Shown here: one piece after another, positions 43,900 to 64,000 of the stretch
How the letters are laid out: every line of letters starts with the position of its first letter
Position numbering within the stretch: position 1 is the stretch's first letter
Made by a program: the position numbers and the translations under genes
Assembly: GCF_009914755.1 (NCBI RefSeq)
Contig: NC_060941.1
Length of the DNA stretch: 64,000 bases
Source: the human T2T-CHM13v2.0 reference genome, Homo sapiens
Reading direction: 5' to 3' (one strand)
Notes under the pieces: generated by a model
Databases searched by the model: none
What the model saw: only the letters and a program-made list of their open reading frames with translations
Told to the model about the DNA's origin: nothing

Positions 43900-44255
43900 T
43901 GAATGGGATGGATGAGGAGATGGGTGGAACAGTGATTGAATCAACAGGTGGGTGGTCAGGCAGATGGGTGGATAAATCGGGTTGACAGATGGGTGGGTGG
44001 ACGATAGGGGTGAGCAGATAGATGGACTGGCTAAGTGGGTGGAAGGATGGGTGGATGGATGGTTGAGCAGATGAATGGGTGGGGGAATGGGTGAGGAACG
44101 GATGGCATGGGCGAGGGGATGGATGGAGGGGTGGAGGCATGGGTGGGTGGATGGAAGGCTGAGCAGATAAATGGGTGGGGGAATGGGTGATGAAAGGATG
44201 GCATGGTGGGTGGAGGGGTGAAGGATGTACAGATGAGAGTCTGGTGGAAGGAATG
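43900..44255. repeat. Degenerate (GGAT/GGGT)n simple repeat
   Basis: ggatggatgggtggatgg-type tract containing an internal ~58-bp duplication (~44053 and ~44149). Confidence 0.85.
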
Positions 44256-44294
44256 CCTAGATGCACAAGAGCATGTCAATGACTTCACTCTTAC

Positions 44295-44416
44295 CTCTTG
44301 AGTTCTATCTTCTACGTAATGGTGCTGAGTGGGCATGGTACTGTCTTCAAGGCTGAATTAGAAGTGGCTGCCATTTCCCAGGCACCAGCTGGAAAGGATC
44401 CAGTCACTAGAACATC
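44295..44416 (-). other. KCNJ17: 122-nt non-coding 5'UTR exon of the Kir2 gene (exon 2 equivalent)
   Basis: Acceptor tcttttaactttAG|gatgttctag at 44418-44417 and donor ctcaagag|GTAAGAg at 44294. Size and the ~6.65-kb intron agree with the recalled KCNJ12/KCNJ18 exon 2. Confidence 0.75.
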
Positions 44417-44888
44417 CTAAAGTTAAAAGAGTAAAGCCAAGTTACTGCAGGCAGTGCTGCTCTTCTCAGAGGGGCTCACAAGTAAGACATAACCACATGA
44501 ACCCACATTTCTGCTCACTTCCCCAGGGCCCCACAGGAGATGGAAGGGCCTCTGGCCTGCACCTTTGATGCCCCACACCTTCACAGCATAGCAACCATCC
44601 AGAACCAGAGAAGAGCAGAACAAGATGGAGTGTCAGAGAAAAATGACAGCTGACAATTATTGAGTGCCTATTGCATGCCAGACACTATAGTAGGCATTTT
44701 ACATACATCATCTCACATAATCCTCACAATTCCACAAGGTTGGAACTATTGTTGTTACTATTCCAGAGAAGTAGTTAATGTGGTAATTCTCTCACTGTCA
44801 CAAAGGAATTCAGGCCCTCAGCCTGTACTCCCAGCCACCACCTGCAGAGCCTTCCCAACGCCAACCTTGGAGCCAGTTGTGAATAGCT

Positions 44889-45840
44889 GGGTGGGTGGAT
44901 GCATGAATGGGTGGATGGATGGATGGATGGATGGATGGATGGATGGATGGATGGATGGATGATGGATGGGTGGGTGGATAAATGAATGCAGGGATGAATG
45001 GGTAGGTGGATGGATAAATGGATGAGTGGGTAGATGGATGAATGAATACATGGGTGGGTGGATGGATGGATGGGTGAATGAGTGGTTGGGTGTAAGGGTG
45101 GATGGCTGTATGGAGGAGAGGATGGATGAGTGGATGAATGGATAATAGGATGGAAGGATGGATGGATGGATGGATGAATGGATGGATGGATGGATGGTTG
45201 GATAGATGGATGGATAAGTGTGAAAGTAGATGATTGGATGGATGGATGAACAGAAGGGTAGATGGGTGGGTGACTGAGCGGATGGGTAGATGAATGAATG
45301 GAGGGATAGATGGGTGAATGGGTGGATGGATGGATGGGTGGATGGATGGGTAATGGGTGGGTGGATGGATGGATAGATGAATGGGATGGATGGATGGGCA
45401 GATGATTGGGTGGATGGATGGGTGAGCGAATGAGTGGATGGGTGAGTGAAGAAGTGAATGGATAGAGGGATGGCTGGGTGGATGGGTGGGTATATGGTTG
45501 GTGGGTGGATGAACAGATTAATGGATGAATGGGTGATGGGTGCATGGATGGACGGATGGATGGAATGTTGGGTGATGGATGGGTGGAGTGAATGAGTGGA
45601 TGAGTGGATGGGTGGATAGATGGACAGGTGGATGAGTGTATGGGTGGGTAGAGAAATGAATGGATAGAGGGATGGAAGGGTGGATGGATGGATAGATGGG
45701 TGAATGGATGGGTGGGTGGATGGGTGGGTAGATGGATAGATGGATGGGTGGATGGGTGTGAGGGTGGGTGATGAGTGGGTAGATGGATGGATAGGGTGTT
45801 TGGGCAAGTAGGATAGATGACTAGATGGATGAGCAGGTGG
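44889..45840. repeat. ~950-bp (TGGA)n/(GGGT)n tetranucleotide tract
   Basis: Pure (GGAT)n at ~44913-44960, then degenerate units; source of the spurious HPSI-repeat ORFs. Confidence 0.95.
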
Positions 45841-47596
45841 GCACACGGCTAACTACATGGATGGGCACACATCAGTAATTTGCCAGAGATTTGCCTTGGG
45901 TACACATACATCCTACATGGTCCCTGCAATCCCAAAGATGCAATTTCCCTGCCTGTCAAAGTGGTCCCCCTGCCTTCCTATCCAGTGTGCTGTGAGAATC
46001 AGAGAAGAGGTTGGTGGGAAGGGGCTCTGAGGATCTCCATGGTGAGCCACCTGACATGCTTCTCACCTCAGCACCTCCCAGCCATGGAGTTCATGGGGCC
46101 TGCCCTTTCCAAGGTTACAGCCAAGGCTGGTTTGTCACACTGGTTTTTCTGGCTGGAATTAAGGCAAATGTTGGTGAGTCACCCCCACCTCACCAGCCTC
46201 CTGGGACAGGTGACAGTGGTTTAGAGGCACACAGACCTAGATTCAAATCCCCGCTCTGCCCTTCATAAGCTGTGTGACCTTGAGTGAGTCACTTCCCCTC
46301 TCTCAGCTTGTTCTGAAACGGGATGGCCTGCCTGGTCTCTAGTGGCCCTTCAGTCCCTCTTCACCCTCCAAGTCCCCCAATCCCCAGCCCCTTCTTCCCC
46401 ATCCCTCATCATTCTGGGAGCAGAAGCCACAGGCCTACACTTTGCCTCTCTCAGCCATTCCACCCTCAAAACTGATGGGGACACAGAGGTTCAGAGATGG
46501 ATGGGTGGATGGATGGACAGGTGGATGAGCTGCAGAGGTTCAGAGAGGTTCTGTCACAAGCCAACATCACAGAGATGGGGACCTCCACAGCAGGGACTTG
46601 GGTCCACGCCCTTCCCCGAGTGGGCCAACACTGTGCTTGGCCCTGCATGCTTGGCAGCTGGCTGCAGTCATCCCAATGCTCACAGCCCTGCCTTGGAGGG
46701 GGGACAATTCTCCCCTCTGGACAGATAGGAAAACTGAGGCTGAGAGAACCTAAGTCACCTGCCCAGTCACCTGGAGCTGGAACTCTGAGCAGCGAAGGTC
46801 GGATATTGCCACAGGGCCATGGGAAGCCAAGCAGGGGTGGGGGACAGAAGTGTGGGCAGCAGCATCTATCCACATCCTGCTGGTCACCTGGCTTGCACCA
46901 GGCTCTCCCAACCTCATCCCTCACTCCCTACTACCTGGAAGGGGCATTCCCCAGACCACAAATCCAGCTGGATTTGTTCTTATCTAGGAGGAAGGCAAAA
47001 TTAGCTCTACTCTACACAGGGGTACTGAGACGTAGAGCAGAGAAGAGACTTTCCTGAAGTCACAGTGCAGGGCAGGACCCTGCAAACAGGAGCCAGCCTT
47101 CTGGATGCCCTGGCCAGAGCTCCCACCACCTGCAGGGGCCACAGCAGTCGCCATGTGAGCTCACCCTGCCAAGTCCCACAAATGCTTCCCGGGTTTATGG
47201 TCACAATCCTGGATGAGGAGGTGGGCTGCAGGGGCAGTGCTTCCCCATGACCACGACTGAGGGCCAACAGGCCGGGCTGGCCCACAGCATCCCGCAGGGG
47301 AGGGCAGGGCCTGGGCTGAGGATGGGGCTGAAATCCCCCATGGAACAGGGCAAGGCACTTCCCCTTCCTGAGGCTCAGCTTCCCCTGAAAAATGAGGCTG
47401 GTGTCGCCTGCCAGGCCTCTCAGAGGGTGTGCCATGAAATTGAAGGTGGTGACGAAGCTGCAGTCCGGGCACTGGGCCTTGCCCCAGCGGGTCTCTGGGA
47501 GGTGGCAGCCGTCACCCTCCCTGGAGAGGCCTGGCAGCCCCCCAGCTGACTGGGGCCTGAAACTCCCCATCTGCAAAATGAGGAGACCCCACACAC

Positions 47597-47790
47597 CTCG
47601 GGAGACTGTCACGAGGGTAAGCCAAGCCCTGGCTTCAGTATCTGTCCCACAGAGACGATGCAGCAGTGTGGGTCCTGCAGGCGTTCACTGTGATGGGCGT
47701 TCCTGACACCATGCGGGCACTGAAAGCAGAAACAGGCTTCCCAACAGGACGGAAAGCTGGCTGTGCCCAAGCCTCCCTGTGGCCTGCTGG
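47597..47790 (-). other. KCNJ17: Candidate first exon (KCNJ18 exon-1 equivalent); 5' boundary approximate
   Basis: Donor cccgag|GTGTGT at 47596; ~3.2 kb upstream of exon 2 and ~250 bp downstream of a DR4 element, as recalled for KCNJ18. The start site is not visible in the sequence. Confidence 0.5.
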
Positions 47791-48037
47791 ATGTCCTCAG
47801 AAGCCCCCCTGGCCCGCAAGGAGCTACAAAACTCACAAGGGCAGGATCTGCCTCGCTGTTCCATGCTCGGGATGCACCCGGACCACAGAGGATGCTCAGA
47901 AAGTGGAAGCTGCAGGAACCTTGAGTGACACTGACCCCTCACATTCTGTGGCGTAAAGATGGGGGCTGGACATATGGACCCCAGAAAGAGGCTGCACCAA
48001 GCGGCCAGAAAAGGCAAATGTCCACCCTTAAGCCCTG

Positions 48038-48053
48038 AGGTGAGGCCAGGTCA
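48038..48053. promoter_or_regulatory. DR4 nuclear-receptor element (thyroid hormone response element-type): AGGTGA ggcc AGGTCA
   Basis: Two half-sites (one perfect AGGTCA, one with a single mismatch) 4 nt apart, seen directly. Reads TGACCTggccTCACCT on the gene strand and resembles the TRE I recall for the KCNJ18 promoter. Confidence 0.75.
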
Positions 48054-51000
48054 GAAGATTCTGGCCCCACAGGGTGGACGACAGTCACACCAAACACCAG
48101 GGAACGTTTCTGACGGTATTTTTATCTTGAGAACATCCTTCTTCACAGAGGGTGGGGGCAGGAGGGAGAGAGGGTGTCCTTGGCCCCAGGCCCCTGGGAG
48201 AAGCAGAGAACAGAGGCCCTGCAGTAGTGCCCTCTGCTGGGGTGGCCATCACAGACACTGCCCCATCCCTGGGCTCCATTAAGTCCTACGAACAGGGGAG
48301 ACCTGGAGGGTCTTGGGGCCCTTCTAGGACTCCTGGTTCTGCCCCAACTTGCTGTGTGACCTGGAGCAGGGCTCTGTCCCTCTCTGGGTCTCCCTCTTCA
48401 AGTCCTCACTGGGCACCGAGGACTTGAAGAGGAAGCATTGGGAGCCTGCCTTCATGGGGCACCCTGCCTCACAGGGCAGATGGTGAGAAGTCAGCAGTCA
48501 TAACTCACTGGGCCCTCAGGAGTCCAGGGGAGGTGTCTAACCCAGTGGCAGGAGGGGTGCTTCCTAGAGGAGTATCTGCCAGTGGGGAGGCAGCAGCGAG
48601 CAGCAGGGGAGAGAACCCCGCCTGAGACCAACCATAGCACAGTGACACAGCTAAGAGCACCAGAGTCCTGCAGTCTTGGTGCAGATTCCAGCTTCACTCT
48701 CCAGGCACTGGGCCTTGGGCAAGACCCACCCTGACTGTGTGCAAACCAGGGGGCTGGCCCAGCTACTCCACAGAAGTCCTGCCAGCCCTCCATTCCAGGA
48801 TCTAAACTATTCGGGGTTTGTGGGGAAGGTGTGACGAGATGGGCACAGCCGTGACACCATCATATCATGGAAGCTCAGCGTGTGCAGGCACAGAGGCCAA
48901 GGCATCACCCCAGGGGGCCTCAGATGTCATATTAATGAGCCTAGACTTGATCCCAAAGGCAATGGGGAGCCCAAGAGCCATAAGAGAGCTTGAAACTATA
49001 AGAGTTCTGGGGCAACAAGGCATGAATTCAAATCGTGTATCCATCCCTTCCTGTGTGGCCTTGGGCAAGCCACATAACCTCTCTGAACCGCAGTTTTCTC
49101 ACCTATAAAATGGAACTAATCATAGCACCTATCTCATGTGGTTGCAATGGGGTTTCCATGAGTGAACACATGGTGACTGGCCAGCTAGGAACTCCCTGTC
49201 CCCCCACCCTCTCCCCTCATCACAGCTATGAGCCTCTGCCTCACCCTGCAGAGAGTCACAGGCCCCTTTAGGGCCTCAACTGGACCCCACTCCAGGCAAG
49301 AAGGAATGATGGGCAGGAAACCCAGCGGGAGGCACAGGTCAGCAAAGGCACCCTGGCCTCTGATTTTCATACAGCTGTAAATTTTCCAGCTTCAACTTAA
49401 TTGGAGTCTCAGACACGTCCTGAGCAGCCAGCATGTGCACAGGAGAGCAAGGACCCAAGGTAAGGACACAAGAAGCATCCTGGGACCAGAAAGACCACCA
49501 AAGGAAAGGCTGGGAAATTTGCCAACATAAAAATATGTATGATGTTGTCAAAACCAATCATAAGTAAAATAAAAGAAAAATAATGTGTTTGTTTAAATCG
49601 GACCCATGTGCTTAATATATAAAGAGTTCTTATGGATCAATAAGAAAAAAAGGACACAGTAGGAATGAGCAGAGAGCTAGGGTTGGGCTTCCAATGTCTC
49701 TGGAATGTCCCACACCTCAGAGCCTCAGCCAGAGCTGGCCCCTCACCATGAAATGCCTTTCTCTGCCTCTCAGAATGCAATGCATCCTCCAAGCTCAAAG
49801 GATGCCTCCTCCATGAAGTCTTCCAAGAGTTCCCCAAGTCCCTTGCTCCTCCGTGAGTACTCCTAGCATGTTTCTTGAGCCCCTAGGACCCAGTACTTGG
49901 CTTCTGCTCACTGCATCACAGAAGTCCCAGGTGGGGTGGCCCAAGCTTCTTTGAGAGGAGGAAATGAGGTGCAGAGAGGAGCCATGCCCAAGGTCACCAG
50001 TCTGAGCCAGAGCTGGGCCTAGCACCCAGGTGTCCTGCCTCTGTCCCTCTGTAATCCAGCCACCAACCCCTCAGTGAGCCCTCCAGGCCTGCCTTGCTCC
50101 CAGCAAGGAAGTCCCCAGCTTGAGGGGTGCATTTATTTCTTCACAAAGGGCCAGCCAGGATTAGGGCCTCAGCCCCCCATAACCTGTCTGCTCTCTGTAG
50201 GGGAGCACGTTACAGTTGCTTTCTTAGCTTCCTTCTTTTATTTTGTAAATCTGGCCTTATTTCAGGTACAGAAGATTCCCTGGGAGGGCCTGACAGACTC
50301 TCAGGGCTCTGGGGTTCACCCTACCATGGGCAGGAGGCTGACCTCAGAGATGTAGAGTCCAGGAAAATAGGGTAGGCCTTCCAGAAAGCCTATCGCTCTG
50401 CCCCAGGCCCCATTTACAGTTCAGATCTGTGAGCGCGCCACGGCCTGGCACTGCTGCCAGAATCACACTCAGCACTGACTCACACGCTCAGCGGTGTCTG
50501 CCCAGCCTCTACTATGTGCTGACATCATGCCTGGGGACCCACATGCTGCTGGGGCAAGACAGACCAAAAAAAACAGGCTGAGGGAAAAAAAAAGAACTTG
50601 AGTAAATCCAGAGATGGGTGGAGACTATTCCAAAGGTCAGGGAAGACTGCCTGAGTAGGTGACATCTGGAGAGCTAGTGAGAAGAGAATGAGAGAAGAGG
50701 GTACTCCTTGAAGTGGGAACTGTAGCCACAAAGGCCTTGAGGCTGAGGCCAGGGGAGGGCAGCGGGGCTGAAGTGAGTGTGCCAGGGAGGTGGGGGAAAG
50801 GGAGGCAGGGACAGCAGATGGATGGCGAGACAGAAGCACACAGCTCAGAAAGGGAGGGGACTTGGCCGAGGACGTGCAGCACGCTGGGCAGATGGGAGCA
50901 CCTCTTCATCGATGGTGCTCAGAGGAAGCTGCATGCCAGACACTACCCAAGGCCCTCTCTTCCCCATTCTCCCTCAAACTCCTATGCATCCTTCAACACC

Positions 51001-53009
51001 CCTTTCCAAGCCCCACCCCTTGTGCTTCCCTCTGTCCTGGATCAGACCATGCTGGGTGCAGCCGGTCTTTCTGAGTCCACCAGGCCAAGGGTCTCCTGAG
51101 GGTAGAACCTGGGTCTGACTGCGTTGAGGGGCCTCAGCACAGAACCAGGTCCCTGGGGGAAGTTAAGGGATTGGGAACTAGGATTCTGTCCCTGTGCCCC
51201 AAGAGTGCTCTAGAGTCCTTAAAGTCTGAATCACAAGACGGCAGGCAGCACTGCAGCCCACCCAAGGCCACTCCAGCTTCAGCTCACCATGGGACCGCCC
51301 CGTCCCTGTCCCCTCTGGGTCTCAGTTTCCCCATTTGTCAAATGAGAGGTCCCATACCTTGGGAACAGGGCATCTCCACCTTCCTCCCTTATGAACTGCT
51401 CACAGCAGGGTGGCCCCTGCAGGAAGAAAGCATGGCTGTCACTCTCTGACCCCTGCTAAGCTCTGAGCTTGGCCCACAGGGCAGGAAATGTCAGCTTTCT
51501 GCCAGGCTGGCAGGAGAGTTCCAGCTGAGCCTGGGGGTGATGGGAGATCCTCTCTGCTCTATGGCCTTGCTGGGGTACTCACAATGCCTAGCCTGGGCAT
51601 TTCACCCACAACAGCCAGGTGTGGGGGCCTGGGGATGCAGCTGACCCTGACCACTTCTCCCCCACCATGGCTTGGAAACTAAAGCTCAGGTCCCCAGACC
51701 CCCAGGAGGGCTGCCCAAGGACCCTGGGGACAAGGCAAGAGGGCCGGGCAAAGCAGGGGCAGGCTTTGCAGTCCCCAAGACAGTGGAGCAGGTTCCCGGA
51801 GGTCCTGCCGCAGAGCCCAAGGACAGAAGCCAGCGCTTTGTGAACTTGATGGGGGAAAAATCATCAACTTCCCCGCCTTCAACCTCTCTGTGAAATGTAT
51901 GCTGGACACACCGAGCCTGGGCTCACCCCAGGCCCTATAGCAATGCAGACCGCTGGAGCTGCACAGCTCTCCTCCCTGCTCCCATGGAGTCGGTAGGACG
52001 GCTGCCACCAGGTCTTGCTAGTTAAGGCGCTTGTAGGCATCAGCATTCTAATTACTAGATCACACATTTTAAAAGAATGTTTTGATAAGTACTGCATCAC
52101 TTACTTCTGGTTTCCTCTGTGGCCCTATATGGGTTCTCTCTTACACTCAAAAGTGTTATTCTGAGAAGGAGGATGTCAAAGGCATCCCTAGCACACGAAC
52201 AGCTCAGCACGCTGCATCAGAGGGAGAAGGGCTGAGCACCTGCCAGCTCAGGGCCAGGGCCTTGTCGGGAAAGGACAGGGCAGCCTGGCCCCTCGCCCAC
52301 CCATCCAGCCACTTGTTCATTCCCCGTTCATTCCATAAACAAGTCTTTCCTGAGCACCAAACCCATTTGAGGCTCTGTGCGGGGTGTAGCATGAAAAGGG
52401 TGGTCAGCCCTGTGCCCGGCTCCTCACAGATGGGGGGAGACAGACATTCCAGGAGAAACCGGAGAAACACAGGAGATTCCGGCTACAGGAGGGACTGTGT
52501 GGCCACCCGGGAGGAGGGAGTCGAGGCCAGCTGGGGGTCAACAGGGCTGGAAACAAGAGCAAAGTCCCCAGCCCAGGACACAAGGCAGGTTGTGAGGAGA
52601 CAGGAGGGAGGGGCAGGGAAATGAGCTCTGAGAGGGGACAGGGTGGGGGCAGGCCGCTCAGAGGTCAGGAGCTTGCTCCCCACCCCCAGGTGGCCTTTGC
52701 ACGTGCAGCCCACCCAGGTGGGGTGGGGAGCCCTTCAGGCCACATGGAAGGGTCTGGAAGCACTGGCTGCACTTTTTCCTGCACTCCCTCTAGTACTAGG
52801 TAGCAGGTGGCCCTACATGGCCTGATTTCAGAGTGAGGAGACTCAGGCTCTCCATAGCTAGATGGTGGCGAGCGGGGCCCCACAGAGGCTGTTCTGACCC
52901 CATACCACCTTGCACGGACCTCTTACTGCCACACACGCTTTCCAACCCCAGTAAACTGGAAGTGCGCAACTGCTGTGCATCAGGAACACTCATCACTGTG
53001 ACACATGCC

Positions 53010-53125
53010 ACTTCCATTCACATTAGTTTCTTTTGATAGAGGCAAGAAACTGGGGATCGGTTAGGATGAGTGTCGTGCCTAGGGAAACGCAGCCAGTCCA
53101 TGGCAAAGCTGGGATAGAAATTCAC
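53010..53125 (+). mobile_element. MIR fragment truncated at the satellite junction
   Basis: ttttgatagaggcaagaaactgggg...ggtta...tgcctaggg..acgcagccagt...tggcaaagctgggatagaa resembles the MIR core, then stops abruptly. Confidence 0.55.
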
Positions 53126-55664
53126 CGCCCCTTATGCCCGTGGCAGTGGCACGATGCTGTATCCTGCCTGGGCTCTGGCCTCTGCTCTGTCCTCCCTCTT
53201 GCTCTGCCTCCCCTGTTTCTCAGGGGCCTGGATGCCTCTCGCTCTGGCCAAATGTCTTCAATAAAGATGACTTCCCAGTCTGTCAGGGAGACACTTCCTG
53301 GAGATCCATCTCATGATTGTTTCTCTCTCCAAATGTGTTTCTGCTTGATTGGGCAGGTCTCATGACCCTGGAGCTCTTGGCTTCCACACTTGTCTCAGAC
53401 AGGGAAGCTTCCTTCTTCTCCAAGTTTCCCCTCATGGGTGGGTGGATTGCCTAGGATGAGCACTAGGCAAGTGTGACCGGCCTTGTCTTATAGGACAGGT
53501 GGTGACGCATTTCCTCTGCACTTCCTGTCTCATTCTTCAGGGACATCCTCTCCTCTCCTCCTGGGTGGGTTGACTCCCTTGAACTTCTGGCTGAAACCAA
53601 TGTCAGGGAACCAAAGGGACTTGACTGGGGCTGAGGCTGGGGTTGGGGCTGGGTGCAGGGGAAGTTGCGTCAGGGCGACCAGGCCGGTGGAGGATAGGGG
53701 TGGGACGAATTTTGCAGAAACCTCTTTGCTCCTCTTGCAGGCATTTGAAAACGTGGCTTGGGTCAGGCACAGGCCCCACCAGCCCCCCGGGTTGCAGGTG
53801 TTCTTTGATTTTCCTTGGCATTGATGGAAAGGTCACTCGTACCCCCTTCCAACGGCACATGCCTGGACAACACCGTTTGTTTCACCGTCGCCCCACATGC
53901 CTCTGGTGACACACATTCACACGATCTGCTGTGACATATGGCAGTGCCACACGTGGTCACATGGTCTCCACCTCGGATTCGCCCCTGTTACTATTTGCAC
54001 GTGTCCTGTAAAGCGCGGTCGGCCATCCCCAGCCCCAGGGCTTCTAGAAGCGGGGAAGGTCATTGCTCTTTCAAAGGAGGAGGGAGGCAGAGGGCTGATG
54101 GATCAGTGAATTTTCAGCTGACACTACGCCTTGAGACCTATGGGATCATTCTGTGCTGCAGCGAGGCCCTACCTGCCTCACTAGATGTGGTGACCCCATA
54201 CTATCTCACACGGAGGGAGCCAAACTCAGATCTCAAAGGTAGTCCCGAGAACACAGCAGGCGTCCTGAAGCTCCCCCTCCCTCGGTGGAAGTCAGCTTAA
54301 GGAGGACCTGAGGACAGGACTCCTGGGGCTTTGGCCCTGGGACAGGACACCCGCGGCTCCCTCTCCCACGCCACCACAAACTGGACCCCGGATCCAGCCG
54401 CGGCCGCGGCTGCAGCAGGAGCCTCGCTGCCGCCGCGCAGCGGTGGCGTTATTTAAATGGGACACAGCCTGACTGCCTGGAGCGCAGCGCCAGTCGCCCA
54501 GCCAATGCGCACGCGCCAGGCGCAAGCGGCTTCTCCCATCACAGTGCTTCCCACGGTTGTCTTAGAAACCAGTTCCTGAGGCTTGGCACAGCAGGAGCCC
54601 TCCGTGGCAGTGCTTGGGTGTCGGGGCTCTGAGGCTCCGGCCTGACCTCTCCACCGGCTCGACAGCAACGTCTCAGGATGCCACTAGTCACAAAGGGCCG
54701 ACCAGGAGGAGGAACCCCCAGGCGGAGTCCGGGGCAAGCAGCACCGCATCCCAGCCTCAGGACTGCCCGAGGGTGTTGGCGAGAGTCTCTGCAAAAGTCG
54801 TGCCGCCGTGATCTCGAGGACAGGTCGGCCTGCGTGTTCCTGGGCTGCTCTCTCAGACGAGGGTGGTTCTCGTGGAGAGCAGAACCTCTTTGCTCCTCTG
54901 GTAGGCATTTGAAAACGTGTTTTGGGTCAGGCATAGGCCCCCAACCAAACGGGTCCCAGGTGTTCTTTGATTTTCCTTGGCATTGAGGGAAAGGTCACTC
55001 GTTCCCCCCTTCCACTGGAGCATGCCTGGACACCACTGTTTTTTCGCCGTCGCCCCATATGCCTCCGGTGACACACATTCACACCATCTACTATGAGATA
55101 CGCCAGTGCCACCCGTGGTCACATGGTCTCCACCTCGGATTCGCCCCTGTTCCTGTTTGCACGTGTTCTGTAAAGCGCAGTCCGCCTTCCGGAGCCCCAG
55201 GGCTTTTAGAAGTGGGACAGGCCACTGCTCTTTCAAAGGAGGAGGGAAGAAGAGGACTGATGGATCAGTGAATTTTCAGCTGACACTATGCCTTGAGACC
55301 TATGGGATCATTCTGTGCTGCAGCGAGGTCCTGCCTGCCTCACCAGATGTGGTGAGCCCACCCTTTCTCACGCGGAGGGGGCCAAAATCGGATCTGAAAG
55401 GGAGTCCGGAGAACACAGCAGGCGTCCTGAAGCTCCCTGTCCCTGGGTGGAAGTCGGCTCAAGGAGCTCCTGAGGACAGGACTTCTGGGGGTTTGGCCCT
55501 GGGACAGGACACTCGCGGCCCCCTCTCCCATGCCGCCCCAAACTGGACCCTGGATCCAGCCGCCACCGCGGCTGCAGCAGGAGCCTCGCTGCCGCCGCGC
55601 AGCGGTGGCGTTAATTAAAGGGGACACAGCCTGACTGCCTGGAGGGCAGCGCCAGTCGGCCCAG

Positions 55665-55680
55665 CCAATGCGCATGCGCA
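55665..55680. promoter_or_regulatory. CCAAT box overlapping a perfect NRF1-type palindrome TGCGCATGCGCA; variants in each repeat unit
   Basis: ccaatgcgcatgcgca here; related ccaatgcgcatgcgcg at ~56804 and ~57968, ccaatgcgcacgcgc at ~54502, ccaatgcgcatgctc at ~59129 and tgcgcatgcaca at ~63365. Confidence 0.6.
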
Positions 55681-58600
55681 AGGCGCGAGCGGCTTCCCCT
55701 GTCACAGTGCTTCCCACGGGTGTCTTAGCAACCAGTCCCTGAGGCTTGGCACAGCGGGAGCCCTCCGTGGCAATGCTGGAGTGTCGGAGCTCTGAGACTC
55801 CGGCCTGACCTCTCCACCGGGTCGACAGCAAAGTCTCCAGATGCCGCGAGTCGCAAAGGGCCGACCAGGAGGAGGAAACCCCAGGTGGAGTCCGGGGGAA
55901 GCAGCGCGGCATCCCAGCCTCAGGCGTGCCCGGACGGTGCTGGCGAGAGTCTTCCCAAAAGTCGTGTCACCGTGATCACGAGGAGAGGTTGGCCAGCGTG
56001 TCCCTGGGCTGCTCTCTCACCCGAGGGTGGTTCTCGTGGAGAGCAGAACCTCTTTGCTCCTCTGGTAGGCATTTGAAAACGTGTCGTGGGTCAGGCACAG
56101 GCCCCCAACCCCATGGGTCCCAGGTGTCCTTTGATATTCCTTGACATTGATGGAAATGTCACGCCTGGACACCACCGTTTTTTTCGCCATCGCCCCATAT
56201 GCCTCCGGTGACACACATTCACACCATCTGCTGTGAGATACGCCAGTGCCACGCGTGGTCACATGGTCTCCACCTCGGATTCGCCCCTGTTCCTGTTTGC
56301 ACGTGTCCTGTAAAGCTCAGTGGGCCTTCCGGAGCCCCAGGGCTTTTAGAAGCGGTTCAGGCCACTGCTCTTTCAAAGGAGGAGGGAAGCAGAGGGCTGA
56401 TGGATCAGTGAATTTTCAGCTGACACTATGCTTTGAGACCTATGGGATCATTCTGTGCTGCAGCGAGATCCTGCCTGCCTCACCAGATGTGGTGAGCCCA
56501 CCCTATCTCACTCGGCCTGGGCCAAAATCAGATCTGAAAGGGAGTCCGGAGAACACAGCAGGCGTCCTGAAGCTCCCCCTCCCTGGGTGGAAGTTGGCTC
56601 AAGGAGCTCCTGAGGACAGCACTCCTTGGGATTTTTCCCCAGGACAGGAAACCCGCAGCCCCTCTCCCACGCCGCCCCAAACTGGACCCCGGATCCAGCC
56701 GCCACCACGGCTGCAGCAGGAGCCTCGCTGCCGCTGCGCAGCCATGGCGTTATTTAAAGGGGACACAGCCTGACTGCCTGGAGCCCCGCCTGAGTCGGCC
56801 CAGCCAATGCGCATGCGCGAGGCGCGAGAGGCTTCTCCTGTCACAGTGCTTCCCACGGTTGTCTTAGAAACCAGTCCCTGAGCTTGGCACAGCAGGAGCC
56901 CTCCGTGGCAGTGCTTGGGTGTCGGGGCTCTGAGGCTCCGGCCTGACCTCTCCACTGGGTCGACGGCAATGTCTCAGGATGCCGCGAGTCGCAAAGGGCC
57001 GACCAGGAGGCGGAAACCCCAGACGGAGTCCGGGGGAAGCAGCAAGGCATCCCAGCCTCAGGCCTGCCCGGACGGTGCTGGCGAGAGTCTTCCCAAAAGT
57101 CGTGTCGCCGTGATCACGAGGAGAAGTCAGCCTGCGTGTCCTTGGGCTGCTCTCTCACACGAGGGTGGTTCTCGTGGAGAGCAGAACCTCTTTGCTCCTC
57201 TGGTAGGCATTTGAAAACGTGTCTTGGGTCAGGCACAGACCACCCACCCAACGGGTCCCAGGTGTTCTTTGATTTTCCTTGGCATTGGTGGAAATGTCAC
57301 TTGTTTCCCCCTTCCACCAGAGCATGCCCGCACACTGCTGTTTTTTTCTCTGTCGTCCCATATGCCTCCGGTGACACACATTCACACCATCTGCTGTGAG
57401 ATACGCCAGTGCCATGCGTGGTCACATGGTCTCCACCTAGGATTCGCCCCTGTTCTTGTTTGCACGTGTCCTATAAAGCGCAGTCGGCCTTCCGGAGCCC
57501 CAGGGCTTTTAGAAGCGGGACAGGCCACTACTCTTTCAAAGGAGGAGGGAAGTAGAGGGCTGATGGATCAGTGAATTTTCAGCTGACACTACGCCCTGAG
57601 ACCTCTGGAATCATTCTGTGCTGCAGGGAGGCCCTGCCTGCTTCACCAGATATGGTGGGCCCATCCTATCTCACTCGGAGGTGGCCAAAACCGGGTTTGA
57701 AGGGGAGTCGGGAGAACACAGCAGGAGTCCTGAAGCTCCCCCTTCCTCGGTGGAAGTCGGCTCAAGGATGTCCTGAGGACAGGACTCCTTGGGATTTTTC
57801 CCTGGGACAGGAAACCCGCGGCCTCCTCTCCCACGCCGCCCCAAACTGGACCCCGGATCCAGCCGCCACCGCGGCTGCAGCAGGAGCCTCGCTGCCACCG
57901 CGCAGCCGTGGCATTATTTAAAGGGGACACAGCCTGACTGCCTGGAGCGCAGCCTGAGTCGGCCCAGCCAATGCGCATGCGCGAGGCGCGAGCGGCTTCT
58001 CTTGTCACAGTGCTTCCCACGGTTGTCTTAGAAACCAGTCCCTGAGCTTGGCACAGCAGGAGCCCTCCGTGGCAGTGCTTGGGTGTCGGGGCTCTGAGGC
58101 TCCTGCCTGACCTCCACCGGGTCAACGGCAATGTCTCCGGATGCCGCGAGTCGCAAAGGGCCGACCAGGAGGAGGAAACCTCAGGCGGAGTCCGGGGGAA
58201 GCAGGGCGGCATCCCAGCCTCAGGCCTGCCCGGACGGTGTTGGCGAGAGTCTTCCCAAAAGTCGTGTCGCCGTGATCTCGAGGAGAGGTCGGCCTGCGTG
58301 TCCCTGGGCTGCTCTCTCACACGAGGGTGGTTCTCGTGGAGAGCAGAACCTCTTTGCTCCTCTGGTAGGCATTTGAAAACGTGTCGTGGGTCAGGCACAG
58401 GCCCCCCACCCCCCGGGTCCCAGGTGTTCTTTGATTTTCCTTGGCATTGATGGAGAGGTCACTCGTTCCCCCTTTCCACCGGCGCATGACTGGACACCAC
58501 CGTTTGTTGAACCGTCGCCCCATATATCTCCGGTGACACACGTTCACACCATCTGCTGTGAGATACGCCAGTGCCACGCGTGGTCACATGGTCTCCACCT

Positions 58601-59574
58601 CGGATTCGCCCCTGTTCCTGTTTGCCCATGTCCTGTAAAGCGCAGTCGGCATTCCGGAGCCCCAGGGCTTTTAGAAGCGGGATAGGCCACTGCTCTTTCA
58701 AAGGAGGAGGGAGGCAGAGGGCTGATGGCCAGTCAATTTTCTGCTGACACTACGCCTTGAGACCTATGGCATCCTTCTGTGCTGCAGCGAGGCCCTGCCT
58801 GCTTCACCAGATGTGGTGAGCTCACCCAATCTCACTCGGAGGGGGCCAAAATCGGATCTGAAAGGGAGTCCGGAGAACAAAGCAGGCGTCCTGAAGCTCC
58901 CCGTCCCTGGGTGGAAGTCGGCTTAAGGAGCTCCTCAGGACAGGACTCTTGGGGGTTTGGCCCTGGGACAGGACACCCTCGGCCCCCTCTGCCATGCCGC
59001 CCCAAACTGGACCCTGGATCCAGCCGCCGCGGCGGCTGCAGCAGGAGCCTCGCTGCCGCCGCGCAGCGGTGGCGTTAATTAAAGGGGACGCAGCCTGATT
59101 GCCTGGAGTGCAGCGCGAGTCGGCCCAGCCAATGCGCATGCTCGAAGCGCCAGCGGCTTCTCCCATCACAGTGCTTCCCACGGTTGTCTTAGAAACCAGT
59201 CCCTGAGGCTTGGCACAGCAGGAGCCCTCCGTGGCAGTGCTTGGGTGTCGGGGCTCTGAGGCTCCGGCCTGGCCTCTCCACCGGGTCGACGGCAATGTCT
59301 CCGTATGCCTGCCGCGAGTCGCAAAGGGCCGATCAGGAGGAGGAAACCCCAAGCGGAGTCTGGGGGAAGCAGCACGGCATCCCAGCCTCAGGCCTGCCCG
59401 GACGGTGCTGGGCTGAGTCACCCCAAAAGTCGTGCCGCTCTGATGTTGAGGACAGGTCGGCCTGCGTGCCCCTTGGCTGCTCTCTCACCCGAGGGTCGTT
59501 CTCGTCGAGAGCCGAACCCTGCAGCCTCAGGGGTTGCCTGGTGGTGTGTGTTTCAATGCGTCTGCTGTATGACT

Positions 59575-59582
59575 CTGTGTGT

Positions 59583-59614
<32 letters not shown>

Positions 59615-59700
59615 CTTCCGTTCTCTCTTCTGTCTCTCAGTCTGTGTTTCTTTCCCTCTCTCTGTCGGTTTGTGTGTTTGTGTCCGTGTGTGTGTGTGTC
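59575..59700. repeat. (GT)n/(CT)n microsatellite inside the long repeat unit
   Basis: gtgtgtgtgt tract seen directly; absent from the 1.16-kb monomers. Confidence 0.9.
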
Positions 59701-62700
59701 TTCGGCTGAATGTGCCCTGTGCGCCACAAAGCGATTTCTCGCATGGCGACCTGCCTTTGGTGAGCCTCTTTCTGCGTTTCTGCCTGGCTCATGAGGCCGG
59801 TTGTCAATCGTTTTCGCCACCGCGGAGCTGCTTTGGGTGTGTGAAGACCAGACCCACGTGAGGAGATGCATCGGTCCCAGAGCAATTGAAATCTCCTCCC
59901 CATCCTGAGCAGCCTCTTTTCTAGTATCAAGATAAACACACTGCAGCCGAGTACAAGAGCCCCACAGGAGTTCTTTGTCCCACAGGGGAGGAGCGGACCC
60001 ACGTCAGAGAAGATGATTTTATCTTTTCACTGCTCTTCTGTGAGAAATGAAGCCACAGCACGATACAGTCTGCAAGAGGAAGCTGGAAATGGGAGATGGC
60101 AACAATCCCTGTCACTAGAACGCTGGCCTCTCTGGACAAGCCACCCTTTTGGAACCCCTCCCCTTATGCCCATGGCAGTGACACAGTGTTATATCCTGCC
60201 TGGGCTTCGGCCTCTGCTCTGTCCTCCCTCTTGCTCCTTCTGTTCTGTCCTCCCTCTTGCTCTGCCTCCCCTGGCCTAGATGCCTCTCGCTCTGGCCACA
60301 TGTCTTCCCTGTCCGTCAGGGACTTCCCAGTGCTTGACTTCCCAGTCTGTCAGGGAGACTTTTCCTGGAGATCCCTATTATGATTGTTTCTGTCTGCAAA
60401 CCTGTTTCTGCTTGATTGGGCAGATCTCGTGACCGTTGAGCTCTTTGCTCCCATAAGTGTCTCAGACAGGAAAGCTTGCTTGTTCTCCGTGTTTCCCCTC
60501 ATGGGTGGGTGGATTGCCTAGAATGAGTGCTAGGCGACCGTGACTGGCCTTGTCTTCTAGGACAGGTGGTGTAGCATTTCCTCTGCACTTCCTGTCTCAC
60601 TCTTGAGGGACATCCTCTCCTCTGCTCCTGGATGGACTGACTCCCTGGATCTTTTAGCCGTAATGGATGTCAGGGAACCAAGGGGACTGGGCTGGGTCTG
60701 GGGCTGCGGCTGGTGCTGGGGCTGGGGCTTGGTGCAGGGTACTTTGTGTGAGGGCTACCTGGGCGATGGAGCTTTGGCGGTGGGTTGAATTTTGCGGAAA
60801 CCTCTTTGCTCCTCTGGCAGGAATTTCAAAATTTGGCTCTGGTCAGTCACAAGCCCCCTCCTGGTTCACAGGTGTTCTTTAATTTTTCATTGCTGTGATG
60901 GAAATGTCACTTGTTCCCCCCTTCCACCGGGCACATGCCTAGACACCACCGTTTGTTTCGGCTTCGCCCCACATTCCTCTGGTTACACACATTCACGCCA
61001 TCTGCTGTGGGATGGGCCAGTGCCACGCATCATCGCATGGTCTCCACCTGGGGTTCGCCCCTGTTCCTGTTTGCACGTGTCCTGTAAATTGCAGTCAGCC
61101 TTCCGGAGCCCCAGGGCTTTTAGAAGCCGGGCAGGCCAGTGCTCTTTCAAAGGAGGAGGGAGGCAGAGAGCTGATGGATCAGTGAATTTTCAGCTGACAC
61201 CACGCCGTAAGACCCATGGGATCATTCTGTGCTGCAGCTAGGCCCTGCCTGTCTCACCAGATGTGGTGAGCCCATCCTATCTCACTCGGAGGGGGCCCAG
61301 ATTGGATCTGAAGGGGAGTCCCAAGAACCCAGCAGGCATCCCGAGCTCCAGCTCCCTTGGTGGGAGTCGGCTCAAGGAGGTCCTGACGACAGGACTCCTG
61401 GGGGTTTGGCCCTAGGACAGGACACCCGCGGTACCCTCTCCAACGCCGCCTCAAACGACCTCGGATCCAGTCGCTGCGAAGGCTGCAACAGGAGCCCCTC
61501 TGCTACTGCGCAGTAGCCATTGTTTCAAGGGGCAGCAGCCTGACTTCCAGCACCGGAGCTTTAGTCGACCTAGCCAATGTGCCTCCACGAGGCTCTAGCT
61601 GATTGTCTCGTCACAGTGATTTCCACTGTTGTCTTGATATCCAGTCCCTGGATTTTGGCATAGCAGGAGTTCTCCATGGCTGTGCTTCGGTGAAGGGGCT
61701 TTGTGCCTCCGGCCTGTCTTGCAGGAGTTTTAATACCCTTCCCATCCTGTGCTGCCTCCTTGCTAGGATCAAGACGACTGCACCCCAGCCAAGGACAAAG
61801 GCCTCACAGGTGCTCATTGTCCACCCGCAGGAGTGTGCCCACAGACCTTCAAGAAGATGGTTCTCACTCCTCTCGCCCTTTGCCCTCATTGAGAAATCTA
61901 CCCACAGCTATACACTGGGACGGAGAAGGAAGCTGGCTACAAGATGGGGCAAACATGTCTGTCACTCAAACGCTGGCCTTCTGGCCAAGTCACCAATTTG
62001 GCACTTTTTCCCAGATGCCCGTGATAGTGGCATTGTGCTGTGGCATTGGCCTCTGCTCTGTCCTCCCTCTTGCTCTGTCTGCCCAGTTCCTGTGAAGCCT
62101 AGAGGCTTCTTAGTCTGGCTCAATGTCTTCAACAAAGAACACTTCCCAGTCCATTAGGGAGAAATTTCTTTGGGGTCCCTTTTATGATTGCTTCCCTCTC
62201 CAAACCTATTTCTGGATGATAGGGTGTGATGATCCTGGAGTTCTGGGCGTCCATACCTGTCTTGGACAGGGGAGCTACCTTTGTCTGCATGTCCCAATGA
62301 TGGCTTTGTGGTCAGTCCAGGAAGAGCGGGAGGCAACCCCACCGTGGCTGACCTTTGCCTTCTAGAAAAGTTAGTGTTGCATCCCACCTGCCCTTCCTCT
62401 CTCATTCCTGAAGGCCATCTGGTTCCTCTGCTCCTGGGGAAAGTGCCTCCAAGCACTGAATCTTTTGGCTGCCATGGATATCAGGGAGCCAAACGGACTG
62501 GGTTTTTCTGGGTGCAGGGGAGGTGGCGTCAGGGGTACCTACCGGTGGCGGGATGTCGGTGTGGTGTCGTTTGTTGAAACCTCTTGGCCCCTCTGGCAGC
62601 CATCCCTGAATGTGGCTTGGACTCAGGCACAGGCCCTGTCTCACAGGTTTTCTAGTGTGCTTGGCTTTTCCTTGGCTTTGTGTGGGAGGTCCCAGCGACC

Positions 62701-63701
62701 CACCTGCGCACACCTGGATGTCACTATCTGTCTCAGCATCGCCCCATACGGCCTCAAAGACACACACTGACTCCATCTGTTCTTGGGGAACATTAGTGCC
62801 ACGTGTGGTCACATTGGCTCCATCTTGGACTCGCCTCTGTCTCTCCTTGCACATGTCGTGGAAAGCAGTGTCGGGATGCCAGAGCCCCGAACCTTGGAGA
62901 TGAAGTCAGGCCACAGCTCCACCTAGGAAGGAGGGAGGCAGTGGGCTCATGGATCAGTGCATTTTCAGCTGACAGTATGCCTTGCAGCCCTTAGGATCTT
63001 TCTGTGCCCCAGCGAGACCCTTCCCGCCTCACTGCATTGTAACCCCATTCCTGATCACCCCGTGGGATCCATAGTCAGATCTGAAGAGGAGTCCAGAGAG
63101 CCCAGCCGCACCCTGAAGCTCCTCCTCCAATGGGAACCGAAGCAGAAGACCGATCAAGAAGGTCCTGTTGACAGGACCTCTATGGGTCCAACCCTTGGGC
63201 CTCCTGCAGGACCCTCTCGTAGTCCTCTTCCCACCCGCCGCCTCGGACTGCGCTGCCGCCGCCACCGCTGCCCCAGTCCCCAGTCCCCTCAGCCGCGCGT
63301 CGCCGCCATTTTTTAAAGGACCCGCCGCCTGACTCCGGAGCAAGCGGGGATTCGGCCTCGCCAGTGCGCATGCACAAGGCCTGAACCTCCGCTTTGGTCG
63401 TAGTGATTGCCACTGTTGCCCGAGGATGGGTCCCTGAGACTTTGCGAAGTAGGAGCCCCGTGTGATTGTGCGTCAGAGTCGGGTCTGAGAGCAGTCCTGG
63501 CCAGGGCATTAAGAGGATGGTCTCCGGAGCCTGGGATTCTCGGAGGGTCGACCACCAGGAAGAAACCTCAGGCGGATCGCCGGGGCGGCAGCGCGAGATC
63601 CCAGCCTCAGGCCTGGATTCGGGGAGGGTGGACGAGGGCCCTCTCCCAATCTTCACTTCACCCGCCGCCGCCCCAGTCCCCGCAGCCGCCGCTCCGCGGT
63701 C

Positions 63702-63853
63702 ATTTTTCTTTTCTTTCTTTTTCTTTTTTTATAGTCGGAGTCTCACTCTGTCACTCAGTCGAATGCAGTGGCGGGATCTCAGCTGACTGCAAACTCTGCC
63801 GCCCGGGTTCAAGTGATTCTCTTGCCTCCGCCTCCCGAGTACCTGAGACTAGA
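63702..63853 (-). mobile_element. Alu right-arm fragment within the satellite
   Basis: T-rich tail, then ggagtctcactctgtcactcag...gcagtggcgggatctcagctgactgcaaactctgcc...gggttcaagtgattctcttgcctccgcctcccgagta. Confidence 0.85.
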
Positions 63854-64000
63854 GGGATTAGTCAGAGTCGGGACTGAGACCAGTCCTGGCCAGGGCATCA
63901 ACAGGATAGTCTCTGGAGGCCGGGATTCACGGAGGGTCGTCCAGGAGGAAGAAACTGCGGGCGGAGGGCCAGGGAAGCAGCGCGGGTTCCCAGCCTCAGG

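What the first reader, a model, noticed from the sequence alone, without database searches (positions are those of the whole stretch)
54190..59160. Each monomer looks like a promoter + first exon + splice donor cassette aimed at the channel gene
Seen on the minus strand of each unit: NRF1-type TGCGCATGCGC overlapping ATTGG (inverted CCAAT); ~45 bp later an AT box (TTTAAATAA or TTTAATTAA); a GC-rich ~240-nt stretch; then a donor-like ccga|GTGAGAtag (plus-strand ctatctcactcgg at ~56503 and ~57666, variants in other units). A divergent unit has a YY1-type ccgccattt at ~63303. Established: NRF1 binding is blocked by CpG methylation; SST1/NBL2 methylation changes in cancers and ICF syndrome. Inference: a tandem battery of methylation-gated promoters ~10-15 kb upstream of the exon-2 acceptor (44416) could drive chimeric satellite-channel mRNAs when demethylated.
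Basis: partly seen in the sequence, partly recalled or inferred. Interest (0 to 1): 0.7.

Follow-up and report, generated by a model that had tools for sequence, protein, structure and literature searches.

The report
Decaying SST1 satellite promoters beside KCNJ17
These repeats are copies of the known human satellite SST1, each with promoter-like motifs, joined directly to a copy of a potassium-channel gene that left its original promoter behind; they likely act as a mostly silent two-way promoter, and the family's strong splice signal points away from the channel gene, so satellite-channel hybrid messages are possible but unproven.

Summary
The motifs are real. Five cores carry CCAAT next to an NRF1 site (4 of 5 fit the consensus) and an AT box 44-45 nt away, beyond shuffle expectation. 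They belong to the SST1/NBL2/MER22 macrosatellite, whose monomers are already known to have promoter activity and divergent polymerase peaks. The 'first exon + donor aimed at the channel' part is weak. The named donor scores 5.1 of 12.9 bits, 64% of shuffles match it, and it is not conserved in the family. The family's conserved strong donor (GG|GTGAGT) lies on the plus strand, pointing away from KCNJ17. That is the strand inferred for the published NBL2 RNA, and all 5 cores here have lost the site. The AT box aligns with the A-run of a YY1 site that these units lack. New here: the array abuts the breakpoint (53124) of a KCNJ12-derived duplication that left the KCNJ12 CpG-island promoter 22 kb behind, and KCNJ18 has the same junction. 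A candidate internal exon 1 lies at about 47.6-47.9 kb. Leaky chimeric transcripts after demethylation remain possible (about 0.2); no RNA data were available.

The parts
53125..64000 (.). SST1/NBL2/MER22 macrosatellite cluster (SST1 homology continues to about 64630, beyond the window)
   Evidence: Self-BLAST and unit mapping; 84-85% identity to the 1.4-kb chr14 array
53719..58346 (.). Four short units (1138-1164 bp): the full unit minus about 1.28 kb, joined at an AACC microhomology; the TG/TC tract is deleted
   Evidence: six such junctions in the KCNJ18 copy
58347..60798 (.). Full-length 2452-bp SST1 unit holding the fifth core and the TG/TC microsatellite (about 59560-59705)
54502..54516 (.). 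CCAAT + NRF1 site, core 1 (TGCGCACGCGC, fits consensus)
55665..55679 (.). CCAAT + NRF1 site, core 2 (perfect)
56804..56818 (.). CCAAT + NRF1 site, core 3 (perfect)
57968..57982 (.). CCAAT + NRF1 site, core 4 (perfect)
59129..59143 (.). CCAAT + NRF1 site, core 5 (one mismatch)
56750..56758 (.). AT box (also 54449, 55611, 57914, 59075); aligns with the A-run of the YY1 site in chr4/9/14/19 units; YY1 core absent
56506..56514 (-).
54167..54175 (-). Best minus-strand donor candidate, CAG|GTAGGG (9.0 bits), in the gene-proximal unit; CTG|GTGAGG (8.7) at 55343 and 56483
57079..57087 (+). Dead copy of the family's plus-strand donor GG|GTGAGT (also 54778, 55941, 58241, 59410); no GT in 5 of 5 cores
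61737..63615 (.). Older unit of the chr4/chr19 type with an intact YY1 site (63302-63312, minus) and NRF1 with one mismatch (63365-63375); weak donors on both strands
53124..53125 (.). Junction between SST1 and KCNJ12 intron-derived DNA (KCNJ12 chr17:21,348,687); same junction at KCNJ18 (21,636,091)
47597..48053 (-). Candidate internal promoter and exon 1: DR4-like element 48038-48053, donor GAG|GTGTGT (8.2 bits) at 47596; identical in all three paralogs. That this is the KCNJ18 RefSeq exon 1 is recalled, not shown
44295..44416 (-). Candidate non-coding exon 2 (122 nt) with three upstream ATGs
36291..37645 (-). Last exon with the KCNJ17 ORF (432 aa); selectivity filter TISYG, and E139K, D173N relative to KCNJ12

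Best explanation
The five cores are tandem copies of the SST1 macrosatellite's promoter-like NRF1/CCAAT module, joined to a KCNJ12-derived duplicate that lacks the KCNJ12 promoter; they likely work as an inherited, decaying, methylation-silenced two-way promoter that would give mostly non-coding RNA when demethylated, not as first exons built for KCNJ17.
Shown: SST1 identity, the motifs, loss of the plus-strand donor and absence of the YY1 site in 5 of 5 cores, no extra conservation of the motifs, and the shared junction in KCNJ17 and KCNJ18.
From print: NBL2 monomers have promoter activity and are transcribed on demethylation; active SST1 units show two opposite polymerase peaks; centromeric arrays are inactive in CHM13.
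Inferred: NRF1 binding gated by methylation at this array, initiation on both sides of NRF1 with the stable RNA running away from the gene, and KCNJ17 being started, if at all, from the internal exon near 47.6-47.9 kb.
For: - 84-85% identity to the chr14 1.4-kb array; the CCAAT+NRF1 20-mer occurs 195 times genome-wide with at most 1 mismatch, against 0 for the reversed control, so the module is a family trait.
- Across 9 lineage representatives NRF1 ranks in the top 2% of windows, the AT/YY1 box in the top 6% and the plus-strand donor in the top 11% (GTGAG in 9 of 9).
- The plus donor scores 8.8-9.8 bits in most chr19, chr9, chr14 and chr17-major units; 149 exact and 36 near-exact context matches. 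It is dead in 5 of 5 window cores.
- PMC6009586: the repeat's sense strand starts GA-rich then CA, and TNBL is antisense. The TG/TC strand is the window's plus strand, so TNBL is inferred to run away from the gene.
- In 12 KCNJ17+KCNJ18 units NRF1 is intact in 5 (CpG-matched mean 5.2), the donor in 5 (mean 6.9) and CCAAT in 11 (mean 9.3; 37% of windows as good). NRF1 consensus is met in only 2 of 7 KCNJ18 units.
- The tree separates the five cores from the chr4/9/14/19 transcribed class with 100/100 support.
Against: - YY1 orientation in the chr4/19-type units and the 45-nt CCAAT-to-AT-box spacing both fit a minus-strand start, toward the gene (positional rules recalled).
- Fair minus-strand donors exist in 3 of 5 cores (9.0, 8.7, 8.7 bits), only 2 strong competing acceptors and 2 AATAAA lie before exon 2, and the intron would be an ordinary 9.8-14.4 kb.
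- CpG o/e is 0.46-0.73 against 0.05-0.29 in the 46-53 kb flank, and CpG transitions are only 3.9 times the non-CpG rate, which fits partial germline hypomethylation.
- The strand of TNBL rests on one sentence about the repeat's start; the primer table was unreadable and the reporter orientation is not stated in the methods.
- The PRO-seq statement is for the class; the per-locus table was not seen.
- The plus-donor rank (top 11%) is modest, and the 9 rows are related.
Confidence: 0.6

Rival explanations
1. Promoter capture: when demethylated (sperm, placenta, tumours, DNMT inhibition), the cores start minus-strand transcripts that splice from CAG|GTAGGG (54172) or CTG|GTGAGG (55343, 56483) to exon 2, making SST1-KCNJ17 mRNA for a likely non-conducting, dominant-negative Kir subunit; likewise for KCNJ18.
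For: The duplicate lacks the KCNJ12 CpG island, 22 kb outside the junction. NRF1-CCAAT-AT-box order and spacing fit the minus strand. The splice path is open and the exon-2 sites are intact. [quoted passage not shown]
Against: No selection on the motifs; YY1 absent; NRF1 is broken in 5 of 7 KCNJ18 units and the CTG|GTGAGG donor is strong in only 2 of 7. The family's donor and RNA point the other way. None of the 10 paper searches showed such a transcript in listings or passages read.
Confidence: 0.2
2. The array works at a distance: as an NRF1 cluster that enhances, or as heterochromatin that damps, the internal promoter 6.4 kb away, so copy number (5 cores here, 7 at KCNJ18) and methylation would tune KCNJ17/KCNJ18 output without chimeric RNA.
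For: Active SST1 units have promoter/enhancer-like divergent peaks; the array is the nearest CpG-rich element; the candidate internal promoter is intact.
Against: The enhancer signature is reported for the chr4 and chr19 arrays, a different clade. A 766-bp KCNJ18 promoter fragment works alone in reporters (PMC6186026). No contact or expression data were available.
Confidence: 0.1
3. Inert relic: the units are too decayed and too firmly silenced to initiate in either direction in any cell type.
For: Units differ by 7.5-11.4% within the window and the motifs erode at the background rate; the class is inactive in CHM13 PRO-seq.
Against: 4 of 5 NRF1 sites are intact; the closely related NBL2 monomers with the same core reach a third of CMV in reporters; CpGs are retained.
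Confidence: 0.1

Closest known systems
NBL2 / SST1 subfamily 1 arrays and their TNBL RNA (PMC6009586; passages and sections 15 and 24 read, supplement unreadable)
   Same: 84-85% identical; same CCAAT+NRF1 core and AT box without YY1; methylation-dependent internal promoter in print
   Different: NBL2 keeps the plus-strand GGG|GTGAGT donor and the TG/TC tract and has a different deletion (about 1.06 kb). The units here lost both and have no PRDM9 13-mer. [quoted passage not shown]
Transcribed SST1/MER22 units on chr4, chr19 and monomers on chr9/13/14/21 (10.1101/2021.07.12.451456, section 8 part 1; PMC3018141, passages)
   Same: Homologous NRF1-centred core; the 63.3-kb unit here belongs to this clade (79-82% identical)
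   Different: They carry the YY1 site, lack CCAAT and keep the strong plus donor; the five cores form a separate clade (100/100).
LINC02002 starting inside a chr17 SST1 element (10.1101/2021.07.12.452052, passages)
   Same: An annotated RNA that starts in SST1 and runs into neighbouring DNA in the same pericentromeric region
   Different: Non-coding, runs into alpha satellite; I could not determine its direction relative to the core.
Promoter exaptation by 5'-truncated segmental duplicates, and D4Z4/DXZ4 internal bidirectional promoters (first recalled; second from PMC5687341 passages)
   Same: A duplicate that lost its promoter sits beside new promoter-like DNA; a macrosatellite with a promoter in each unit
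   Different: No transcript from the array into KCNJ17 is shown, and a candidate internal exon 1 exists.

Membership tests
SST1/NBL2/MER22 macrosatellite | GC-rich tandem monomers of 1.4-2.5 kb | tested here: met
   GC 0.59-0.62; full unit 2452 bp; the short units are deletion derivatives
SST1/NBL2/MER22 macrosatellite | Sequence homology to the acrocentric 1.4-kb arrays and the chr4/chr19 2.5-kb arrays | tested here: met
   84-85% to the chr14 array; cores align with chr4 and chr19 units. Those arrays were identified by chromosome, period and GA/CA tract, not by a library label
SST1/NBL2/MER22 macrosatellite | RepeatMasker/Dfam SST1 label | not testable with these tools
   No repeat library on hand
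SST1 subfamily 1 (NBL2 proper) | Shared ~1.0-kb central deletion and PRDM9 motif | tested here: not met
   Different 1.28-kb deletion; 0 CCNCCNTNNCCNC in 53125-64000. The cores still group with sf1 in the tree (98/97)
Highly transcribed SST1 class (chr4/19 arrays; chr9/13/14/21 monomers) | Same phylogenetic cluster; YY1-bearing core | tested here: not met
   Not met for 5 of 5 cores; met for the 63.3-kb unit
Pol II promoter, NRF1/NF-Y type | Consensus NRF1 and CCAAT sites in CpG-rich DNA beyond chance | tested here: met
   4 of 5 NRF1, 5 of 5 CCAAT; 3 of 2000 shuffles
Pol II promoter, NRF1/NF-Y type | Factor binding and mapped capped starts at this locus | not testable with these tools
   No ChIP, CAGE or PRO-seq data; supplementary tables not readable
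First exon of KCNJ17 | Strong, conserved 5' splice site on the gene's strand | tested here: inconclusive
   The named site fails; other sites of 8.7-9.0 bits occur in 3 of 5 cores but are not family-conserved
First exon of KCNJ17 | Spliced reads joining it to exon 2 or 3 | not testable with these tools
   No RNA data; RefSeq lists a single-exon model only

The most novel reading that the evidence does not exclude
KCNJ17 and KCNJ18 were born when a promoterless piece of KCNJ12 was joined to an SST1 array whose NRF1-CCAAT-AT-box modules face the gene. Satellite demethylation in germ line, placenta or tumours switches on spliced SST1-KCNJ17/18 mRNAs, so a macrosatellite's methylation and copy number control a dominant-negative Kir subunit and the periodic-paralysis channel Kir2.6.
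Probability: 0.18. Interest if true: 0.68.

Novelty: new member of a known kind. Interest (0 to 1): 0.33.

Why it matters
If chimeric transcripts exist, a cancer- and sperm-hypomethylated satellite would directly drive protein-coding channel genes: KCNJ17, whose filter mutation (TISYG) fits its RefSeq label of negative regulator, and KCNJ18, linked to periodic paralysis. Even if they do not, the comparison gives a motif map of the SST1 promoter: NRF1 in the middle, YY1 facing one way, and a conserved GG|GTGAGT site about 280 nt the other way. This predicts where the two divergent PRO-seq peaks and the unmapped TNBL start (RACE failed) should lie. It also shows that KCNJ17 and KCNJ18 share a satellite junction, which I did not find in the papers searched.

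Tried and rejected
- Idea (recalled) that SST1 monomers are the promoters of TEKT4 pseudogenes: rejected; tektin matches lie megabases from the chr13 and chr14 monomers, and no paper held 3 of the 4 terms.
- Direction of LINC02002 from the side on which alpha satellite lies: inconclusive; no 171-bp array in 24 sampled stretches around the SST1 clusters at 22.96 and 23.04-23.10 Mb (one weak 167-nt lag hit).
- Placing KCNJ18 exon 1 from the published TRE position c.-594: the DR4-like element falls at c.-635 to -620 in my numbering, 26-41 nt off, so suggestive only.
- Selection on motifs within the 12 local units: none found.
- An 18-kb genome search returned only simple-repeat and interspersed hits.
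- N-terminal extension through exon 2: none, only upstream ORFs; two in-frame extensions appear only if exon 2 is skipped and the weak donor is used.
- Origin of SST1 from a KRAB-ZNF promoter: considered, not tested, because no annotation outside the window was available.
- The original KCNJ18 paper, a second KCNJ18 paper and the journal version of the PRO-seq study were not held. Unseen supplements (NBL2 primers, per-locus SST1 PRO-seq and methylation tables, long-read CAGE peak tables) bear directly on strand and activity.

Full report
What is there. From 53125 to past the window's end lies a cluster of homologous GC-rich units. It holds the tail of a full unit, four short units of 1138-1164 bp, a full 2452-bp unit (58347-60798), a degenerate unit, and an older unit at 61737-63615. 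The short unit is the full one minus about 1.28 kb, joined at AACC. The units are 84-85% identical to the 1.4-kb chr14 array and align with chr4 and chr19 arrays, so they are SST1/NBL2/MER22. I had no repeat library; the name rests on chromosome, period and the GA/CA tract described in PMC6009586 (section 24), PMC12657243 and PMC3018141 (passages).

The observation. NRF1 fits the recalled consensus in 4 of 5 cores. The NRF1/CCAAT pair is rare in shuffles (3 of 2000; pattern chosen after the fact), but it is one ancestral event: its 20-mer occurs 195 times in the genome, against 0 for the control. The donor is weak. With a matrix from recalled frequencies it scores 5.1 of 12.9 bits, against 10.3 for the exon-2 donor. 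1286 of 2000 shuffles match it, and within one unit it ranks 7th of 56 minus-strand GT sites.

Comparison across the family changes the picture. In 8 of 8 chr4/9/14/19 units sampled, the AT box reads TTTAAAAAATGGCG, a YY1 site (172 genome matches for its 21-mer). The five cores keep the A/T run but lack the YY1 core, and they have CCAAT where those units do not. In contrast, a near-perfect site, GG|GTGAGT, sits on the plus strand 275-283 nt from NRF1 in chr19, chr9, chr14, NBL2 and the large chr17 array at 23.04-23.10 Mb. All 5 window cores have lost this site. At KCNJ18, 4 of the 5 units my anchor caught have lost it and 1 keeps it; 2 of 7 were missed. So the family does look like promoter plus donor, but the donor faces away from the channel. 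PMC6009586 says each repeat starts GA-rich then CA and that TNBL is antisense. That makes TNBL the TG strand, which is the window's plus strand. This is my inference; the primer table was unreadable and the reporter orientation is not stated.

Is the local array under selection as a promoter? In 12 units from KCNJ17 and KCNJ18 (mean 5.6% from majority), NRF1 is intact in 5, CCAAT in 11, the AT box in 8 and the donor in 5. None exceeds matched windows. The tree puts the five cores with NBL2 and apart from the chr4/9/14/19 clade (100/100). That clade is the one reported as highly transcribed with two opposite polymerase peaks, while centromeric arrays are called inactive (10.1101/2021.07.12.451456, section 8 part 1; per-locus table not seen). 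Only the 63.3-kb unit belongs to the active clade, and its donors are weak (at most 5.7 bits within 420 nt).

Homology to KCNJ12 ends at 53124, exactly where SST1 begins, and KCNJ18 has the same junction. The KCNJ12 CpG island (o/e 0.94 at 21,325,001) lies 22 kb outside the duplicated block. So both duplicates lost their promoter and gained an SST1 array whose YY1/AT-box polarity faces the gene. Better minus-strand donors exist at 54172 (9.0 bits), 55343 and 56483 (8.7). Only 2 strong acceptors and 2 AATAAA lie before exon 2. CpG retention (o/e 0.46-0.73; CpG transitions 3.9 times background) fits partial germline hypomethylation, as reported for NBL2 in sperm (PMC5687341 passage). [quoted passage not shown] The product would be a 432-aa subunit with TISYG, E139K and D173N, in line with the RefSeq label 'negative regulator'.

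What the gene likely uses instead. A donor (8.2 bits) at 47596 and a DR4-like element at 48038-48053 are identical in all three paralogs. I recall KCNJ18's exon 1 lying about 3.4 kb before exon 2, which fits. The published TRE position c.-594 (PMC6186026, parts 1-2 of 4 and passages) is 26-41 nt from my numbering, so this is suggestive, not shown. The original paper was not held.

Verdict. The finding is a real promoter-like module of a known promoter-bearing satellite, decaying at background rate, most likely silent or giving non-coding RNA (0.6). Promoter capture by KCNJ17/18 is open but unproven (0.2); enhancer or silencer action (0.1) and full inertness (0.1) remain. In 10 searches I saw no listing or passage describing the SST1-KCNJ junction or the motif map; most subscription papers and several supplements were out of reach. 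Other papers seen as passages only: 10.1101/2021.07.12.452063, PMC12767296, PMC12644668, 10.1101/2022.08.15.504037 (49), PMC8582499, PMC13701484.

Noticed in passing
window 34968-53124 vs chr17:21,636,091-21,654,271 and 21,348,687-21,366,889: KCNJ17 and KCNJ18 share the SST1 junction, yet KCNJ18 is closer to KCNJ12 (2.0%) than to KCNJ17 (2.7%); private changes 303 (KCNJ17), 177, 172 in 18,066 columns. Suggests faster change in KCNJ17 or KCNJ12-KCNJ18 conversion.
   Followed up: partly
window 34966-34968: About 1.5 kb present in KCNJ12 (21,366,889-21,368,434) is absent at the same point in both KCNJ17 and KCNJ18, a second shared mark.
   Followed up: no
window 36291-37589 (minus): The KCNJ17 ORF is open but has G145S in the selectivity filter, E139K, D173N and a one-codon deletion relative to KCNJ12.
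   Followed up: partly
L014/L013, chr17:21,627,344-21,635,501: The paralogous array before KCNJ18 has 7 cores against 5 here, so it is probably copy-number variable.
   Followed up: partly
L064, chr17:22,960,173-22,961,800: An SST1 unit cut off about 170 bp left of NRF1 keeps NRF1 and CGG|GTGAGT. The recalled plus-strand 5' end of FAM27E5 would fall about 55 nt right of NRF1; recalled and unverified.
   Followed up: partly
chr17:23,036,600-23,101,300 (L040-L042, L047): A large homogeneous 2.35-2.37-kb SST1 array (27 exact donor-context matches) with perfect NRF1, CCAAA in place of CCAAT, and an intact plus donor.
   Followed up: partly
window 63472-63611 and 63861-64004, Alu at about 63703-63855: A 140-bp piece of the YY1-type unit is duplicated across an Alu; the copy keeps CCA|GTGAGT just past the window. 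The predicted lncRNA LOC124907937 starts 2 kb further on the same plus strand, outside SST1.
   Followed up: no
window 44888-45792: A 900-bp (TGGA)n tract just upstream of exon 2, also present in KCNJ12.
   Followed up: no
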